A stretch of DNA of 64,000 nucleotides from an uncultured archaeon (lineage in GTDB: Archaea; Asgardarchaeota; Lokiarchaeia; Sigyniarchaeales; SOKP01). Below are positions 2,508 to 28,668 of this stretch, piece by piece (the first letter of the stretch is position 1; every line of letters begins with the position of its first letter). The notes beneath the pieces are model-generated. The model was not told the DNA's origin and did not search any database. It was given only the letters and a program-made list of their open reading frames with translations. The stretch covers positions 51,141-115,140 of the forward strand of contig CAZWEM010000008.1 in NCBI GenBank assembly GCA_964632315.1. Reading direction: 5' to 3'. The position numbers and the translations under genes were made by a program.

Positions 2508-2803
2508 ATTAAGATCATAATTAATTATAATAAAAATGAGTTTTGGAAATTATTTTTTCCTTATCCAATATTTACAACAACTTGGATATATCTTATAATA
2601 TCAGGGAAAAAATGCCTATCATTAGACTATTTAATAATAAAATGAAAATAGAAATCCGTAAGCCATATCGAACAATTTTGGGTAAAATCTTACTTTATTT
2701 TTTAATCTCATTTTCAATTTATAAAGAGAATTAATCTTTAAATTACATTAAAATTAATACTCTAGTAATTATAATCTTCTAATTCAGAATAAAAGGGTTA
2801 AAA

Positions 2804-3835
2804 TTGTTAGAGACAAATATTACAAAATTGTTTGGAATAAAGAATCCTATTGTTGCAGCCCCGATGGGTCCTTTCTATACCACTGAGTTAACCATTGCGG
2901 TATCTGAAGCGGGTGGTCTTGGAGTATTAAGCCATACTAATTTATTTGGTAAGAGTAGCATTGAGGAAATGAAAAAAAACATGCTTCACGTGATAGAACA
3001 TACAGATAAACCCTTTGGATTCAATATAAGAACGTCTAGATTACAACTTGATGCACCATTATTGTGTCGTCAAATTCCCAAGTTTATACAAAGCAACCCT
3101 AAATTACGAGATCAATGTTTATATGCTGTTACAAGTGCAGGTAGTCCCAAAACAATGCATAGTAAACAATTTCTGAGATTAAAGGAGTCTGGTTCTCAAA
3201 TTAAGCATTTTCATGTTGCACCAGCACTCTGGCTCGCAGATAAATGTGTTGCAAATGGAGTGGATGGGATGGTTGTCACGGGTTGGGAAGGAGGTGGTCA
3301 TCAATCGTATGAAAAAATAAGTTCATTAGTCTTGCTTCAGCAAGTACGTCAAAAGCATCCTGATATTCCTATTATTGCTTGCGGTGGTTTTGCTTCTGGA
3401 GAGGGTCTTGCCGCGGCATTATCTATGGGTGCAGGAGCAATTGCTATGGGTTCAAGATTCATTGCCTCAAAAGATAGTGAATTTCATGAAAAATATAAAA
3501 ATATTGTTCCATCTGCTAAAGCGGATGATACAGTTTGGGTAACGGGAGTATTAGGGCCAATCAGGTTATGGAAAAATGAATATTCACTTCACCATGGTAT
3601 GATATCAAGTAAGGAAGAGAAAATGGCATTAGAAGCTAAAATCACGCCTCAAATGGCGCTTGAGGATCAGAAACACTACGAGATGACCTATGAAGGAGAT
3701 ATCACGAATGGAGCAGTTTTGCTAGGCCAAAGCATCGGGTTAATAGACTCAATAAAGAGTGTTAAAGAAATCGTTAATGGTATTATAAAGAGAGCTCAAG
3801 AATGTTTAGAAAATGGGGCACGTCTAATTAAGTAA
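2804..3835 (+). CDS. Nitronate monooxygenase / FabK-like FMN oxidoreductase
   Basis: PIVAAPMG, AVSEAGGLG, EGGGH, IIACGG, MGSRF. Confidence 0.88.
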   Translation: MLETNITKLFGIKNPIVAAPMGPFYTTELTIAVSEAGGLGVLSHTNLFGKSSIEEMKKNMLHVIEHTDKPFGFNIRTSRLQLDAPLLCRQIPKFIQSNPKLRDQCLYAVTSAGSPKTMHSKQFLRLKESGSQIKHFHVAPALWLADKCVANGVDGMVVTGWEGGGHQSYEKISSLVLLQQVRQKHPDIPIIACGGFASGEGLAAALSMGAGAIAMGSRFIASKDSEFHEKYKNIVPSAKADDTVWVTGVLGPIRLWKNEYSLHHGMISSKEEKMALEAKITPQMALEDQKHYEMTYEGDITNGAVLLGQSIGLIDSIKSVKEIVNGIIKRAQECLENGARLIK

Positions 3836-3905
3836 TCTTTCTTTTTTATTTTAAATTGCTATTTCTTAATCAAATTAATATATTGCTTAAGCTAAATTAA
3901 TAAGT

Positions 3906-4145
3906 ATGGAAAACCGAAAAAAAATTGAATTAATTGCAGAAGTTTTGGAACGGTATGATAAGGGCACCTGTTTTTATTGCGTTAGTGTTTTAAACGGAGA
4001 TATGGAAGCATATGATCGAGATGAGGGTTTTGATGATGATTGGTGTCCTAATTGTTGTGAAAGCATTGATCCTAATGATGATTGGGATGAAGCATGTATA
4101 AGTGCTATCGAAAAGGTTATCCATAATCAAGAATTTGTACCCTAA
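3906..4145 (+). CDS. Small acidic putative zinc-binding protein
   Basis: 79 aa, CFYC...CPNC pairs, ATG start, co-oriented with neighbours. Confidence 0.65.
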   Translation: MENRKKIELIAEVLERYDKGTCFYCVSVLNGDMEAYDRDEGFDDDWCPNCCESIDPNDDWDEACISAIEKVIHNQEFVP

Positions 4146-23821: not shown

Positions 23822-24934
23822 TTAAACCCTTCGTCTTCGCCAAATGATATACGCAACTATAATGAGTATGCCAATAACAACTAACACAATCGTTAAGATA
23901 AGATAGTTAAATTCTACCATAAAAACATCTTTATCTAGTGAAGATAGGGAATTAAAAAGCATTAAACTGTTAAAAGCATAGAAAGTTGTCGTGATTGATG
24001 ATAATTCTTGATTATTTTCGGAGTATTTATCACTAAATCCTCCATCTTGGAAATTTTGGCGATCCAAAACCCAAGAAACTGTTGCATCCACATGTAAATT
24101 GGAAGATTGAATACAATCGATTGCTGTCGCAGCAAAATACGTACTGCTTAAAAGAGGAAAAACTGCGATATCCATTGGAAGATAACCTCCATATCTGATT
24201 AAATCATACGTATCATTGATGAAAAATGAGTTTAGATACTCCAAGGTTTTTGATTTACTTACTAAAGCATCAACACTATCTAGTTCATTGATTAAAACTA
24301 CCGCATAATATGTGGTTAACAATGTAGAGGTCAATGTCGAATTTCCAGCATACCCTCCATCAATTTTAAAACAGCTTAATATCCAATTCTCGTGAATAGC
24401 TTTATTAGGAAATTCAATCCCTAGAAGATCATAAATTTGATACGCATAAAAGGTGGATGTGAGATCTCTTGAATTGCTTGAATTAATGGGTGAGAACCCT
24501 CCATCAACATGGGAACTTGAATTAAGATATTTTTGAATCGTAACATTTAAAGCAGAATCAATAGAATAGCCAATCAGGTCGAAAGCTTGTAATATATAAT
24601 AGAGATCATATAAAAGCAATGTATTTGAGTCAAGCATATCATTTAAATTATCTTCCAAATAATTACTTAACTCTACTTTATCAACTTGGTTTTCAACACC
24701 CAAAACACCCTCAATTTTAAGAGCATCGTAATGGTTGAGTATTTGTAAAGCTTGGGCATTTTCTTGATAGGTTTCTCCAAGAAAATCTTCACTATCTTCT
24801 ATTACTCCTTGATTGGCATAAATGAAATCAATCATGTACGAATTTCTCGTCTTAGCAGCTACTAAGGGAGTGATAATAATTAAAGATGTAAATGTTAGAA
24901 GGATTATCGTGAAGAGTCTAAGTTTTATTTTCAA
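23822..24934 (-). CDS. Exported, membrane-anchored prenyltransferase/squalene-oxidase-repeat protein
   Basis: Signal peptide, four DGG(F/Y)...ST.YA repeats, C-terminal TM plus RRRRV. Confidence 0.75.
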   Translation of the reverse strand: MKIKLRLFTIILLTFTSLIIITPLVAAKTRNSYMIDFIYANQGVIEDSEDFLGETYQENAQALQILNHYDALKIEGVLGVENQVDKVELSNYLEDNLNDMLDSNTLLLYDLYYILQAFDLIGYSIDSALNVTIQKYLNSSSHVDGGFSPINSSNSRDLTSTFYAYQIYDLLGIEFPNKAIHENWILSCFKIDGGYAGNSTLTSTLLTTYYAVVLINELDSVDALVSKSKTLEYLNSFFINDTYDLIRYGGYLPMDIAVFPLLSSTYFAATAIDCIQSSNLHVDATVSWVLDRQNFQDGGFSDKYSENNQELSSITTTFYAFNSLMLFNSLSSLDKDVFMVEFNYLILTIVLVVIGILIIVAYIIWRRRRV

Positions 24935-25066: not shown

Positions 25067-26593
25067 TTAGAAAATTTCGCTAATATCTTTATAGAGATGG
25101 TCACTATTTGACAAAAACTCTTCATGGGTTACAAACAGTCTTAAGAATGATGGGAGGCTGCCAAGTATTGCTGCTCCACTAAAAATTGCAAATTGAAGAT
25201 TATCTGGGATATAATACTTGATTAATCCTTCTGTAGATTTATAATAACCCGAAAATTCCTTAGCTGGAGCTATTTTTTTGATTTCTTGTTTTTGAACTTC
25301 CGGTGCTTCAAATGATTCTAAGCTTGAACCACAATATGGACAGAAAATTGACGATGTATCTGTTACCTCTTTCTTACAAGAAGGACAAATTAATTTCCCA
25401 TCTACCATTATAGATTCAGCAGGATTTTCTCCAAATTCTATGGAAAGCTCTGGTAAGGATAGTCTTCCTCCACATGAAGGACAAAATTCCTTACCATCTG
25501 ATAAATCAACCATTTCACCACATTGGGGGCAAGTATCTCTTGTTTTTTTGCTTCCTTTTACTGGTTTCATCTTTGAGGAAATAGATTCTTCATTATTTGT
25601 GACTTTTGGTTTTGGGATTTTACCTAATTCTGGAAGGAGTTTATTCAATTCTAAGGTTAATCGTTCATCAAAACCAGAATAAGAGAGATTACCACCTGAT
25701 ATAATAACATGTGTTAATAAATCTGACCAATAATGGTTATCAATTCCTTGTAAGCTTGCAATTATTGCTTGAGGAACGCTATTTATAGGGTACCCTAATA
25801 ATTGTGGCTGAAACATAACTTCTGGGGCTTCAGAGAAAATATAGTGAGGAATTTGTATCGTAGATCCATCTGGCATTGAAAGTTTAAAACTATCGCTCAT
25901 ATCATGATCTTTTGAGGGATCAAGAACAAAATAACAGTTCTTTTCCTTGATATCTCTAATTATTTCATCTACAGCAGAAGACTCAATTGATATCCCTTCT
26001 CGCATGAGTAAATTTTTTAGATACTGGTTAACATCTGTGCCGGCTAACGTTAACTTCTGGACTGCTTGGTCAATTATTTGACCGTTTACAATTGGACAAA
26101 TCCATGTCATCCCGTCACCACTTTCAATAACTAAACCAGTAGTCAATCCCACACTAAACATAGAAAGTATTGGAGTAGGAACCATAATTAAACTTTTTAC
26201 TCTATGAGTTTCATAAAGAACACGTGCAATATACTCTTTTGTCTCTCTGGGAACGAAAGGATACTCAGTATAAAATACGGGATAATCAGAAAGATTTTCT
26301 ACCCTTAATAACGAGTAAAAAATATAGTTTAGTATTTCATAAAAGTCATTCCAATCTAAAATCGCTCCTCTTTCAATGGGATGTTTTACTTTTAAAACTC
26401 CACGCATTTTCATTGCATCGTTGCCCACATATATGTTTCTTGCACCCACATCAACCATAACGGCCTTGTATTTTTCAGTACCCGTGATAGTGGGAAATAC
26501 AAATCTTGGGGTGGGCTCTCCAGCGAATCCAACCTTGCAATAAGCCGATCCTATGTCAATAATAATGGGGGTTCCTGGTAACGGGATAACCAT
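25067..26593 (-). CDS. Actin-related protein with double zinc-ribbon insertion
   Basis: IDIGS..CKVGFAGE..PR..FP, YVG, HPIERG, TTGLVIESGDG, DIKEK.CY, PDG, SGG, GAAILGSL; four CxxC in insert. Confidence 0.93.
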   Translation of the reverse strand: MVIPLPGTPIIIDIGSAYCKVGFAGEPTPRFVFPTITGTEKYKAVMVDVGARNIYVGNDAMKMRGVLKVKHPIERGAILDWNDFYEILNYIFYSLLRVENLSDYPVFYTEYPFVPRETKEYIARVLYETHRVKSLIMVPTPILSMFSVGLTTGLVIESGDGMTWICPIVNGQIIDQAVQKLTLAGTDVNQYLKNLLMREGISIESSAVDEIIRDIKEKNCYFVLDPSKDHDMSDSFKLSMPDGSTIQIPHYIFSEAPEVMFQPQLLGYPINSVPQAIIASLQGIDNHYWSDLLTHVIISGGNLSYSGFDERLTLELNKLLPELGKIPKPKVTNNEESISSKMKPVKGSKKTRDTCPQCGEMVDLSDGKEFCPSCGGRLSLPELSIEFGENPAESIMVDGKLICPSCKKEVTDTSSIFCPYCGSSLESFEAPEVQKQEIKKIAPAKEFSGYYKSTEGLIKYYIPDNLQFAIFSGAAILGSLPSFLRLFVTHEEFLSNSDHLYKDISEIF

Positions 26594-26720
26594 AGCAATT
26601 CAATTTGTTGTATGTTTTTTTAAAAAACCTTAATCTCTAGAAAAGGAATTTTACTATAAAAATTAAGTGAAGTTTGAAAGTTAAAAATTTTTACTTTAAC
26701 TCTTCTCATTAAGCTTTGAT

Positions 26721-27388
26721 CTAATTTCCAGACGTAGGATAATTCTTGACAATTTCTCTAAAAGCTAAAATTTTCTTTTTGCGTTGTTCTATTGCGAGAC
26801 GATCGGTCTCGTCAAATTCTTCTTCCATCCATTCTTTCTGCTTTCGTTCCTCTGCTAAAGCTTCGCGTTTATAGTTTTTTAAAGAAATTAGAGAGAATGT
26901 TGCTTTATACTGAAATAAGATCCTTCTAAAGAGATAACTCCTTCTGAGAGACTTGTTTTTTCTTGAATTTTGCCGAAAACTTCCATTATCGGGTAATCTA
27001 TTATCCCTACGTAGATGTAATGAAAGAGGTTATTGATGTTTTCCATCGCACTAAACTTTCTCATTGCAAGAGGCTTATTTTGAATTCGGGCAGTATATAA
27101 TGCTAATAACCCTAGAGCGCAATAAAATCGCATTACAATCTCTTCTTGTTTGTACCTTGCTATAATAAAATTGGATATATTCTCTTGAATTTCGTTGATC
27201 ACAGTGGGAGCGAAGTTCTGTTGCCAGATCGAAAGATATTTGATCAGCATTTCATACCATGTATCGCAAAATCACTTGGATTGGGTAAAGAATACAACCC
27301 CAAAAGTGTCATAGTTGAATTTCAGCTCATAAGCGTTGAATTCTGGTGGTTCAATTACGGATATATAACTCGTTCCTATTTTTTCCAT
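26721..27388 (-). pseudogene. Disrupted gene of unknown family (in-frame TGA and frameshift)
   Basis: ATG 27388 MEKIGTSY..TQSK, TGA at 27274-27272, then in frame with ORF 26888..27250; a second frame continues ..NYKREALAEERKQKEWMEEEFD..PTSGN to TAG 26721. Confidence 0.55.
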
Positions 27389-27738
27389 TCACTTTCGCCT
27401 TCATTTAATTGTGTTTATAATAAATTACAATGAGAGTATTTAAACAAAAATTGTAAATTTTTGATTAGTTTCATATCACGGTTTTCTCGATAGAACTTTG
27501 TATAACAATTAGAAAAATTAATCATAATCCTCATGGTCATTATAAAAGTTTTGATTTTCATTTAGCAAATTTCCTTTTTCAAGAATTCAATGATTGCTTT
27601 CCTGATTGAGATTCTTTCTTCTTCGTCTTAATCATTCAGTAGTCGTTTAATGAGAATATCAATTTCGTTCAGGAATCCATTAATTGTTTTAAAAATTGGT
27701 TAAAATCATTTTCCATAAAATTTCAAATTAGTCGGGGA

Positions 27739-28254: not shown

Positions 28255-28668
28255 TTAGTCTAACCTAAGAGTGCTTTCAAGCTTCTTTTCAAGCTTTTTT
28301 ATCTCAGAAAATAATGTATTATATGTCTCAAGTAAAAATTGACCCCATTCGTTTAATTCAATCCATCCTCCTCCTCCAGGTCCTCCTTTTCCAGTATTGA
28401 CTGGAGTTTGTCCTGTTCGTTTTTCTATTCTTTTTAAAATATTCCACGCATACTTATAGGAATAACCACAGTCTTGGGCAGCTTTCGTTAATGAATTATC
28501 CTTCATTTGGCTTAATTCATGAATGCGGTTTAAAAGTTTTGCCCATCCAGAACCTAAGATGTTTTTTCTTTCTCCATTTTCGAATTCTAACCAAATTTTC
28601 AAGCCAAAACTTACTTTTTTTTTGAGGCTTTCAATATTAGAAGGTTGGATTGGGGGTTTATTCTTCAT
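28255..28668 (-). CDS. ModE-like winged-helix transcriptional regulator
   Basis: KIWL, ILGSG..LL, SLTKAA..GYSYKYAW, GGPGGGG..L.EWG. Confidence 0.88.
   Translation of the reverse strand: MKNKPPIQPSNIESLKKKVSFGLKIWLEFENGERKNILGSGWAKLLNRIHELSQMKDNSLTKAAQDCGYSYKYAWNILKRIEKRTGQTPVNTGKGGPGGGGWIELNEWGQFLLETYNTLFSEIKKLEKKLESTLRLD

What the first reader, a model, noticed from the sequence alone, without database searches (positions are those of the whole stretch)
25067..26593. Actin-related protein with a ~130-aa double zinc-ribbon insertion in subdomain 3
Seen: a complete actin fold with an actin-like D-loop (KYKAVMVDVGARNIYVG), interrupted between ELNKLLP and IKYYIPD (about nt 25229-25630) by a Lys/Pro linker and four CxxC motifs (CPQC, CPSC, CPSC, CPYC). 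Established: this site corresponds to the actin ~323-326 loop, where eukaryotic Arps carry insertions. Inference: a specialised Arp whose zinc ribbons recruit partners and probably hinder normal filament contacts (nucleator, capper or adaptor).
Basis: partly seen in the sequence, partly recalled or inferred. Interest (0 to 1): 0.75.

Follow-up and report, generated by a model that had tools for sequence, protein, structure and literature searches.

The report
Asgard actin relative carrying zinc ribbons
This is a real, strongly conserved actin-like gene found in one order of Loki-type Asgard archaea, including a cultured species. It has lost actin's ATP-splitting residues and carries two tethered zinc-binding modules exactly where the next filament subunit would dock, so it may cap or anchor actin filaments, but this is untested.

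Summary
Window 25067-26593 (-) encodes a 508-aa protein with a complete actin fold. Between the equivalents of actin K326 and I327 sits a 136-residue insert (residues 322-457): a Lys/Pro hinge, two CxxC...CxxC zinc ribbons on disordered tethers, and an invariant Glu-Phe motif.

It is not an assembly chimera. Independent salt-marsh contigs bridge both junctions, and at least 118 species-level genomes encode the same architecture. With the insert columns removed, all zinc-ribbon Arps form one clade (SH-aLRT 100). The clade is confined to one order (families f1-f4, 128/134 genomes in f1) and was not found in seven genomes of sister orders.

The Ca. Lokiarchaeum ossiferum orthologue is UYP44711.1, an unremarked 'ARP' in a published tree. 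I found no paper describing the insert.

The catalytic Q137 and H161 are replaced by T/S and W. The pointed-face elements (D-loop, SD2, the SD4 PDG motif) are conserved, while barbed-face elements are degenerate.

The best reading, at moderate confidence, is a non-hydrolysing Arp that docks on Lokiactin filament barbed ends, or anchors them, through a zinc-ribbon adaptor. No binding test could be run.

This scan has found the same family before on other genomes.

The parts
25067..26593 (-). Whole gene: 508-aa zinc-ribbon actin-related protein (P0001)
   Evidence: ORF; Pfam Actin 2.5e-69 plus DZR; more than 300 homologue clusters of about 508 aa
25631..26593 (-). Actin core, N-terminal part (residues 1-321; subdomains 1, 2, 4 and most of 3)
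   Evidence: Pfam and phmmer alignment to actin 6-326; AF2 pLDDT mostly above 90
26429..26485 (-). D-loop region (residues 37-55), same length as actin's; the most conserved stretch of the family
   Evidence: Mean pairwise identity 0.87 against 0.74 for the core; T37, G38, E40, K41, Y42, K43, V45, D48, R52, Y55 invariant
26174..26176 (-). T140, at the position of the catalytic Q137 of actin
   Evidence: Alignment with the genome's own Lokiactin and with actin; T or S throughout the family
26102..26125 (-). Phosphate-2 loop ESGDGMTW (residues 157-164): D154 becomes E157 and H161 becomes W164
   Evidence: E157, G159, G161 and W164 invariant in 40 sequences
25604..25630 (-). Entry hinge ELGKIPKPK (residues 322-330); an LP.LG..P pattern is conserved across the whole clade
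   Evidence: Identity 0.77 in f1; pattern seen in f2-f4 orthologues
25538..25603 (-). Linker 1 (residues 331-352): Lys-rich, variable, predicted disordered
   Evidence: Identity 0.36, net charge +3.3; pLDDT below 50 at 336-346; acidic in f3 orthologues
25466..25537 (-). Zinc ribbon 1 (residues 353-376; C355, C358, C371, C374)
   Evidence: Cys invariant; identity 0.70; pLDDT about 85; present in every clade member examined
25391..25465 (-). Conserved short strand (LPELSIEF type, 'QIxI' in relatives) followed by variable linker 2 (residues 377-401)
   Evidence: Identity 0.51, then 0.16; motif visible across f1-f4
25322..25390 (-). Zinc ribbon 2 (residues 402-424; C403, C406, C418, C421)
   Evidence: Cys invariant; identity 0.63. 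Absent in L. ossiferum, in the f4 orthologue whose sequence was read (L093) and in P0127
25223..25321 (-). Linker 3 with the invariant E446-F447 motif (nt 25253-25258), returning to strand beta15 (residues 425-457)
   Evidence: E446 and F447 invariant in f1; [A/E/G]-E-[F/Y] in an acidic setting in all wider clade members; pLDDT below 50 at 428-447
25067..25222 (-). Actin core, C-terminal part (residues 458-508) and stop codon
   Evidence: phmmer second domain 458-497 against actin 327-364; identity 0.71
26615..26627 (-). A/T box TTTTTTAAAAAAA, 22-34 nt upstream of the ATG: candidate archaeal TATA element (inference)
   Evidence: Sequence read; not tested
23822..24934 (-). Conserved downstream neighbour: 370-aa protein with signal peptide, extracellular alpha/alpha-toroid domain and C-terminal membrane anchor
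   Evidence: Pfam Prenyltrans 5.4e-15. Lies next to the Arp gene in every f1 locus with enough downstream DNA (76 of 77), within about 250 nt in 73 of them, and also in f2, f3 and f4. It has its own TATA-like box

Best explanation
The gene encodes an order-specific Asgard (Loki-type) actin-related protein, the orthologue of Ca. Lokiarchaeum ossiferum UYP44711.1.

Shown:
- It has a complete actin fold with no other sizeable indel relative to actin.
- It keeps the phosphate loops and adenine-pocket glycines, so it probably binds nucleotide.
- It has replaced the residues that position the hydrolytic water: Q137 is T/S and H161 is W.
- A 136-residue insert is spliced into the alphaK/beta15 loop on the barbed-end face of subdomain 3. 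It holds one or two Cys4 zinc ribbons on disordered tethers plus a conserved acidic Glu-Phe/Tyr motif.

Inferred:
- The protein does not behave as a dynamic filament former.
- It uses its well-conserved pointed face (D-loop, SD2 61-65, SD4 PDG) to dock on the barbed end of a Lokiactin filament or on a Lokiactin monomer.
- Its own barbed face is degenerate and carries the insert. It hinders further subunit addition and presents the zinc ribbons as a docking module for an unknown partner.
- The net role would be a barbed-end terminating or anchoring Arp.
For: Architecture and fold.

Insert position, between the equivalents of actin K326 and I327. Residues 322-325 make the SD3-SD4 longitudinal contact in F-actin (PMC7247010).

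Catalytic substitutions are invariant in the family: T/S140, E157, W164.

Conservation pattern within the f1 family:
- D-loop 0.87, against core 0.74.
- Zinc ribbons 0.63-0.70, close to the core.
- Linkers 0.16-0.36. This is the pattern of folded beads on flexible tethers under purifying selection.

Comparison of the two faces:
- SD2 61-65 scores 1.00 within f1 and 0.99 across the clade, and the SD4 PDG motif is kept.
- SD3 283-294 scores 0.66 and 0.48, the C-terminus has 0% identity to Lokiactin, and the W-loop scores 0.70 and 0.55.

Single origin and obligate insert:
- All 28 zinc-ribbon Arps form one clade (SH-aLRT 100) on a tree built without the insert columns.
- No insert-less full-length relative above 40% identity appears among 1.84 billion representatives.

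Order-wide retention: f1 128/134 and f3 12/14. Four f4 genomes have it when the full-length protein is used as the query.
Against: - There is no direct evidence of any interaction with Lokiactin or of capping.
- The contrast between the two faces is moderate, not absolute. Across the wider clade the D-loop is only average (0.62), and the hydrophobic cleft stays fairly conserved (0.91 and 0.65).
- The long flexible tethers (27 and 33 residues) could let the ribbons swing clear, so a subunit might still add below. From recall, Arp2 and Arp3 tolerate small inserts at this loop and still template a daughter filament.
- The genome already encodes gelsolin-domain proteins, a known kind of barbed-end capper.
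- The relative position of the ribbons and the core in the AF2 model could not be inspected, because no coordinates or PAE were available.
Confidence: 0.4

Rival explanations
1. Filament-decorating subunit. The protein co-polymerises into Lokiactin filaments, or forms its own filaments. The flexible tethers let the zinc ribbons project from the filament surface as docking sites without blocking growth.
For: The core has no other indel relative to actin. The hydrophobic cleft and the plug region are moderately conserved. The tethers are long and predicted disordered. This loop tolerates inserts in other actin-family members.
Against: The hydrolysis residues that drive filament turnover are lost. 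The SD3 283-294 loop and the C-terminus, both barbed-face contacts, are degenerate. The insert enters and leaves exactly at the 322-326 longitudinal contact. In L. ossiferum the transcript is several-fold lower than Lokiactin's (PMC9834061), which fits a sub-stoichiometric role, though that is also compatible with sparse decoration.
Confidence: 0.2
2. Non-filament scaffold. Like the nuclear Arp4 and Arp8 of eukaryotes, it acts as a monomer or heterodimer inside another complex. The zinc ribbons would bind nucleic acid, ubiquitin-like proteins or a membrane-protein tail.
For: Loss of catalytic residues with retained nucleotide loops resembles non-hydrolysing Arps. Zinc ribbons are generic adaptor modules, and the closest non-Arp relative of the insert is the cytoplasmic DZR of a CPBP-type membrane protease. 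The gene has a conserved neighbourhood with a membrane-anchored surface protein across four families.
Against: The charge of linker 1 is not conserved: basic in f1 and acidic in f3, which argues against generic nucleic-acid binding. The neighbour's cytoplasmic tail is only 5-7 residues. Both genes have their own promoter-like boxes. The actin pointed-face elements remain among the best conserved parts.
Confidence: 0.2
3. Self-contained nucleator. A linear motif in the insert recruits a Lokiactin monomer to the Arp's barbed face to seed a filament. The motif would be Glu-Phe/Tyr in an acidic setting, preceded in the f3 subclade by KEKK[LM][LI]KK[TV].
For: The E-[F/Y] motif is conserved across the clade. 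The LKKT-like motif occurs in four f3-type sequences. As an analogy, the ARPC1 insert places a conserved Phe into an actin barbed-end groove (PMC9295785).
Against: No WH2 or thymosin Pfam match was found even at E up to 10. The LKKT-like motif is absent from the window's f1 family. The Arp's own barbed face is its least actin-like surface.
Confidence: 0.1
4. Artefact: a chimeric assembly, a pseudogene, or a mobile element inserted into an actin gene.
For: None found.
Against: Contigs from independent runs and studies bridge both junctions. The same open architecture occurs in at least 118 species genomes and more than 300 protein clusters. The insert is in frame, with invariant Cys and ribbon identity similar to the core.
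Confidence: 0.01

Closest known systems
Ca. Lokiarchaeum ossiferum actin homologue UYP44711.1 (one of three 'ARPs' in Rodrigues-Oliveira et al. 2022, PMC9834061)
   Same: It is the orthologue. It belongs to the same clade in the tree, has the same insertion site and the same downstream neighbour and FolD gene. The published primer 361F matches the locus exactly. Transcription was detected by RT-qPCR.
   Different: About 40% identity. It has only one zinc ribbon, followed by a long charged segment with an LKKT-like motif. H161 is kept, but D157 is Cys and S14 is Gln. The paper does not mention the insert ('zinc' occurs 0 times).
Lokiactin (the genome's own copies L001 and L002; closest solved chain 'HC1 actin', PDB 9wc4)
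   Same: Same fold, about 35-37% identity, same overall length of the core and comparable D-loop.
   Different: Lokiactin keeps Q137, D154 and H161 and has the canonical 6-residue alphaK/beta15 loop. It is a separate clade. It occurs in all Asgard lineages (PMC9834061), whereas this protein was found in only one order in the genomes searched here.
Eukaryotic Arp1 (centractin) and Arp11 of dynactin, and Arp2/Arp3
   Same: These are actin-fold proteins specialised for end-related or templating roles rather than dynamic filaments. Arps differ from actin mainly by loop inserts. A yeast centractin in my sample has a 12-residue loop at the same site. PDB Arp1 chains score nearly as well as actin (232 against 235-246 bits).
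   Different: The protein does not group with the centractins in my tree. No Arp known to me carries zinc ribbons. No ARPC4 match was found in the genome (a weak negative). Arp2 and Arp3 keep Q137 and H161 (recalled, not tested).
Double zinc ribbon domain (Pfam DZR PF12773), e.g. the N-terminal cytoplasmic DZR of a CPBP-type membrane protease in related genomes (L097)
   Same: Two CxxC...CxxC ribbons in tandem. The insert scores 51 bits against a cut-off of 27.3. It shows 33-39% identity to the DZR of the 355-359-aa proteins.
   Different: Here the module is internal to an actin fold, flanked by long tethers and followed by a conserved Glu-Phe motif. The function of DZR modules is itself unknown.

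Membership tests
Actin family (Pfam PF00022) | Sequence score above the curated cut-off | tested here: met
   234.3 bits against 27; 246 bits to PDB 9wc4
Actin family (Pfam PF00022) | Four-subdomain actin fold | tested here: met
   AF2 model with pLDDT 85.6; Foldseek TM 0.90-0.92 to actin chains, normalised by target
Actin family (Pfam PF00022) | Catalytic residues for ATP hydrolysis (Q137, H161; D154 in the P2 loop) | tested here: not met
   T140, W164 and E157, invariant in 40 homologues. The phosphate-loop glycines, D11 and K18 are kept.
Actin family (Pfam PF00022) | Polymerisation into two-stranded filaments | not testable with these tools
Lokiactin clade | Groups with Lokiactins in a phylogeny; about 380 aa without large inserts | tested here: not met
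   It forms a separate, fully supported clade (SH-aLRT 100). The genome's Lokiactins group elsewhere, with a Baldrarchaeia actin.
Double zinc ribbon (Pfam PF12773 DZR) | Score above cut-off and eight Cys in four CxxC pairs | tested here: met
   38.9 bits in the whole protein and 51.1 bits for the insert, against 27.3; eight invariant Cys
Double zinc ribbon (Pfam PF12773 DZR) | Binding of two zinc ions | not testable with these tools
   Needs metal analysis of purified protein
Arp2/3 complex | Non-Arp subunits present (e.g. ARPC4) and orthology to Arp2 or Arp3 | tested here: inconclusive
   No PF05856 match in the 99.5%-complete genome, but the search had no positive control. No named Arp2 or Arp3 sequences were in my tree.
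WH2/thymosin actin-monomer-binding motif (considered for the f3 subclade insert) | Match to the WH2 profile | tested here: not met
   No WH2 or thymosin family listed at E up to 10 for five inserts

The most novel reading that the evidence does not exclude
Loki-type Asgard archaea evolved, independently of eukaryotic CapZ, Arp2/3 or dynactin, an Arp-based device that terminates filament ends. In this reading a non-hydrolysing actin paralogue plugs the barbed end of Lokiactin filaments. Through its tethered zinc ribbons and acidic Glu-Phe motif it anchors that end to a specific cellular partner, for example at the membrane of the protrusions. Filament polarity and attachment in these cells would then be set by an actin paralogue.
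Probability: 0.25. Interest if true: 0.8.

Novelty: new variant of a known kind. Interest (0 to 1): 0.6.

Why it matters
What the non-Lokiactin actin paralogues of Asgard archaea do is open. They are usually just labelled 'ARPs' in trees, and they are invoked in models of how the eukaryotic cytoskeleton arose.

This clade offers a concrete, testable case:
- It has a clear structural handle: zinc ribbons at a known filament contact.
- It has lost the catalytic residues.
- It is retained almost universally in one order.
- It has an orthologue in cultured Ca. L. ossiferum, and one in a closed genome that may be MK-D1, so localisation and biochemistry with native Lokiactin are feasible.

If it caps or anchors filaments, division of labour among actin paralogues (polymer versus end-binding Arp) would have arisen in archaea independently of the eukaryotic Arps. 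If it is a scaffold unrelated to filaments, it would parallel the nuclear Arps.

Tried and rejected
- **Complex prediction.** Complex prediction of the Arp (A2) with the genome's Lokiactin (A3) was not folded. No binding evidence either way.
- **First AF2 model.** The run on the shallow 40-sequence alignment gave pLDDT 54 and was discarded. The deeper 68-sequence alignment gave 85.6. No coordinates or PAE were available, so I could not see where the ribbons sit relative to the core.
- **WH2/VCA-like reading** of the f3 'KEKKLLKKT ... EYG' segment: no WH2 or thymosin Pfam match at E up to 10, and the motif is absent from the window's family.
- **ESM Atlas** feature search with the insert: no usable hit.
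- **RNA evidence.** No RNA holder was listed by the look-up of sequencing runs, so there is no expression evidence for this genome.
- **Literature.** Six full-text searches for the Asgard/Lokiactin/ARP terms with zinc-ribbon, zinc-finger, insertion, capping or nucleation terms found no description of the architecture. Subscription journals are not covered.
- **Arp3 inserts.** I could not read Liu et al. 2013 (JBC) on Arp3 inserts because it is not held. The Arp2/Arp3 insert at this loop therefore remains recalled knowledge.
- **Operon with the downstream membrane protein:** rejected as the simplest reading. There is a 132-nt spacer, T-runs follow the Arp stop codon, and each gene has its own TATA-like box.
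- **Upstream HTH and CBS genes** are syntenic in f1 and partly in f3, but not in f4. I treat this as locus-wide synteny, not a functional link.
- **ARPC4 and CapZ-beta** Pfam searches of the genome were negative but had no positive control.
Full report
**Observation.** The minus-strand ORF at 25067-26593 encodes 508 residues. Pfam Actin covers residues 9-332 (2.5e-69). Several zinc-ribbon models, including DZR (PF12773), hit 352-425. phmmer against PDB chains aligns residues 6-326 to actin 8-327 and residues 458-497 to actin 327-364. The actin sequence is therefore interrupted by residues 322-457 (nt 25223-25630) between the equivalents of K326 and I327. The four CxxC motifs are at C355/358, C371/374, C403/406 and C418/421. 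The D-loop stretch has the same length as in actin. A first AlphaFold run on a shallow alignment was poor (pLDDT 54). A second run on a 68-sequence alignment that includes Lokiactins and eukaryotic actins gave pLDDT 85.6 and pTM 0.73. The two ribbons scored about 85, and three linker stretches (336-346, 383-389, 428-447) scored below 50. Foldseek matches actin chains at TM 0.90-0.92.

**Not an artefact.** Logan contigs from salt-marsh metagenomes cover the gene. One contig of run X1 spans 25188-25754, which is the whole insert. Contigs of X2, from another study, bridge each junction separately. More than 300 protein clusters of about 508 aa at 60-89% identity share the architecture, and 118 species-level genomes encode a relative.

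**Family, distribution, origin.** In 40 aligned homologues all eight Cys are invariant, as are E446-F447 and much of the D-loop. I searched 400 Asgard genomes with the insert alone. It was found in 128/134 genomes of the window's family f1, 12/14 of f3, 1/1 of f2 and 1/4 of f4, with only weak generic zinc-ribbon hits elsewhere. With the full-length protein as the query, four f4 genomes also have an orthologue (489-532-aa open frames). The one f4 sequence I read (L093) has a single ribbon. The seven genomes of the other orders of the class have only Lokiactin-like genes of about 380 aa as best hits. Two f1 genomes (100% and 92% complete) lack it. In a search of 1.84 billion representatives, every full-length hit above 40% identity carries zinc ribbons at the same place. 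Below that come ordinary actins at 31-38%. A maximum-likelihood tree built with the insert columns removed puts all 28 zinc-ribbon Arps in one clade (SH-aLRT 100, stem 0.63). That clade is separate from the genome's two Lokiactins and from two centractins, and its sister group is unresolved. The first-branching members (P0127, resembling the f4 sequence L093) have one ribbon. Most others have two, and L. ossiferum has one. The second ribbon resembles the first (CP.C..., then FCP.CG), so a tandem duplication is likely.

**Cultured orthologue.** Genome G138 is a 6.04-Mb single contig. It carries the orthologue at L086 2304-3803. The published RT-qPCR primer 361F for UYP44711.1 matches it exactly, while the primers for the other two paralogues do not. 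This gene is therefore one of the three 'ARPs' of Ca. Lokiarchaeum ossiferum in Rodrigues-Oliveira et al. (PMC9834061). That paper reports its transcript at a several-fold lower level than Lokiactin's and does not mention zinc or an insert. A closed 4.3-Mb genome of the same family (G143) has a 557-aa two-ribbon orthologue. It may be Prometheoarchaeum syntrophicum MK-D1, but I did not verify this. Six full-text searches found no description of the architecture.

**Anatomy of the insert.** It runs as follows:
- an entry hinge (LP.LG.[IL]P);
- a variable linker, Lys-rich in f1 and acidic in f3;
- ribbon 1;
- a short conserved strand (LPELSIEF, 'QIxI' in relatives);
- a variable linker;
- ribbon 2;
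- a variable linker;
- an [A/E/G]-E-[F/Y] motif in an acidic setting, conserved in every member examined;
- 8-40 residues that return to strand beta15.

Within f1 the mean pairwise identity is 0.74 for the core, 0.70 and 0.63 for the ribbons, 0.64 for the EF motif and 0.16-0.36 for the linkers. This is the signature of folded beads and a linear motif on flexible tethers, all under purifying selection. The closest non-Arp relative of the insert is the N-terminal cytoplasmic DZR of a 355-359-aa CPBP-type membrane protease. The module is therefore a promiscuous archaeal adaptor domain.

**The actin core.** D11, G13, K18, G156, G158, G301, G302, K213 and E214 equivalents are kept. Q137 is T or S, H161 is W and D154 is E throughout f1. 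In f3 the changes differ: D157 is Cys, S14 is Gln or Glu, and H161 is kept or is Thr. The hydrolytic apparatus has thus been released from constraint across the clade while the nucleotide pocket looks usable. Next I compared filament-contact elements, numbered through the gapless alignment with the genome's Lokiactin.
- Pointed-face elements are well kept. SD2 61-65 scores 1.00 within f1 and 0.99 across the clade. The SD4 PDG motif (243-245) is invariant. The D-loop region (residues 37-55) is the most conserved stretch in f1 by pairwise identity (0.87 against 0.74 for the core), but the D-loop proper (actin 39-51) is only average across the clade (0.62).
- Barbed-face elements are degenerate. 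SD3 283-294 scores 0.66 and 0.48. The C-terminus has no identity to Lokiactin. The W-loop scores 0.70 and 0.55.

The insert itself enters at the 322-326 loop, whose residues 322-325 contact SD4 243-245 of the adjacent subunit in F-actin (PMC7247010).

**Context.**
- The gene is followed by a 370-aa protein with a signal peptide, a prenyltransferase-type alpha/alpha-toroid domain (5.4e-15; Ribophorin II N-terminal domain just below threshold) and a C-terminal membrane anchor. FolD comes next.
- The toroid gene lies downstream of the Arp gene in every f1 locus with enough downstream DNA (76 of 77). The gap is under about 250 nt in 73 of them and 0.7-2.2 kb in three. The pairing also holds in f2, f3 and three f4 genomes, but not in G279.
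- The toroid family is more widespread than the Arp.
- Both genes have their own TATA-like boxes, and T-runs follow the Arp stop codon.
- The toroid protein's cytoplasmic tail is only 5-7 residues.

I treat the adjacency as a lead, not as evidence of interaction.

**Mechanism.** The best-supported reading has three parts. The protein is a nucleotide-binding but essentially non-hydrolysing Arp. It retains the face that docks onto a barbed end. Its own barbed face no longer supports normal subunit addition and instead carries a tethered zinc-ribbon and EF-motif adaptor. That makes it a candidate terminator or anchor for Lokiactin filament barbed ends (confidence about 0.4). The architecture and conservation are shown; binding, capping and partner recruitment are inferred. 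Rival readings are:
- a subunit incorporated along filaments that displays the ribbons (0.2);
- a scaffold unrelated to filaments, like the nuclear Arps (0.2);
- a nucleator that uses the linear motif to recruit a monomer (0.1);
- an artefact (excluded).

The genome also has gelsolin-domain proteins, so a barbed-end capper of a known kind may already exist.

**Comparison and novelty.** The protein is a member of the actin family by sequence and fold. It is not a Lokiactin and is not demonstrably related to any particular eukaryotic Arp. The alphaK/beta15 loop is a recurrent insertion site in my sample (loop lengths 4-12, with 6 the commonest, and two cases of 32-41; a yeast centractin has 12). 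That Arp2 and Arp3 carry inserts there is recalled, not tested. I know of no other actin-fold protein with zinc ribbons inside the fold, and I found no paper on it. The clade has appeared unremarked in a published tree. I rate it a new variant of a known kind. This scan has flagged and followed up the same family on other genomes, with similar conclusions. My analysis here was done independently on this window.

Noticed in passing
window 23822-24934 (-): The conserved downstream neighbour is a type I membrane protein with an extracellular prenyltransferase-type alpha/alpha-toroid domain (PF00432, 5.4e-15). It also has a just-sub-threshold match to the Ribophorin II N-terminal domain (21.4 against 23.4 bits). 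It stays next to the Arp gene across four families, yet the toroid family itself is more widespread in Asgard.
   Followed up: partly
window 26594-27738: About 1.1 kb holding only orphan ORFs (for example the 120-aa ORF at 26888-27250, which has no Pfam hit) separates the Arp from the CBS gene. In most relatives a CBS or HTH gene ends 70-400 nt upstream of the Arp; one other locus (L076) has a similar gap.
   Followed up: partly
L086 2304-3803 (-), L087 1624-3297 (+), P0126, P0128: In the f3 subclade (L. ossiferum type) the insert holds a conserved KEKK[LM][LI]KK[TV] segment, reminiscent of the LKKT of WH2 motifs. It is followed by an amphipathic stretch and an acidic E-Y-G motif. There was no WH2 Pfam match at E up to 10. 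L. ossiferum has lost the second ribbon.
   Followed up: partly
L097 1009-2085 (+) (genome G187); similar ORFs in G208, G210, G229: The closest non-Arp relatives of the insert are 355-359-aa proteins with an N-terminal double zinc ribbon fused to a multi-pass CPBP (CAAX-protease-like) membrane domain.
   Followed up: partly
own genome: L001 1498-2640 (-), L002 1471-2613 (+), L003 1489-2601 (+), L005 1474-2628 (+): The genome has five actin-family genes: two Lokiactin copies (82% identical), a 371-aa paralogue, the zinc-ribbon Arp, and a very divergent 385-aa paralogue (L005, long branch). The stop codon of L005 overlaps the start of a 494-aa ORF (2628-4109).
   Followed up: no
window 28255-28668 (-): A 137-aa protein with a ModE/LysR-type HTH and a GGPGGGG motif lies upstream of the Arp in f1 and, weakly (34-38% identity), in f3 loci, but not in f4.
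   Followed up: partly
genomes G147 and G233 (family f1): Two f1 genomes (100% and 92% complete) show no zinc-ribbon Arp with either the insert or the full-length query. These are possible secondary losses or assembly gaps.
   Followed up: partly
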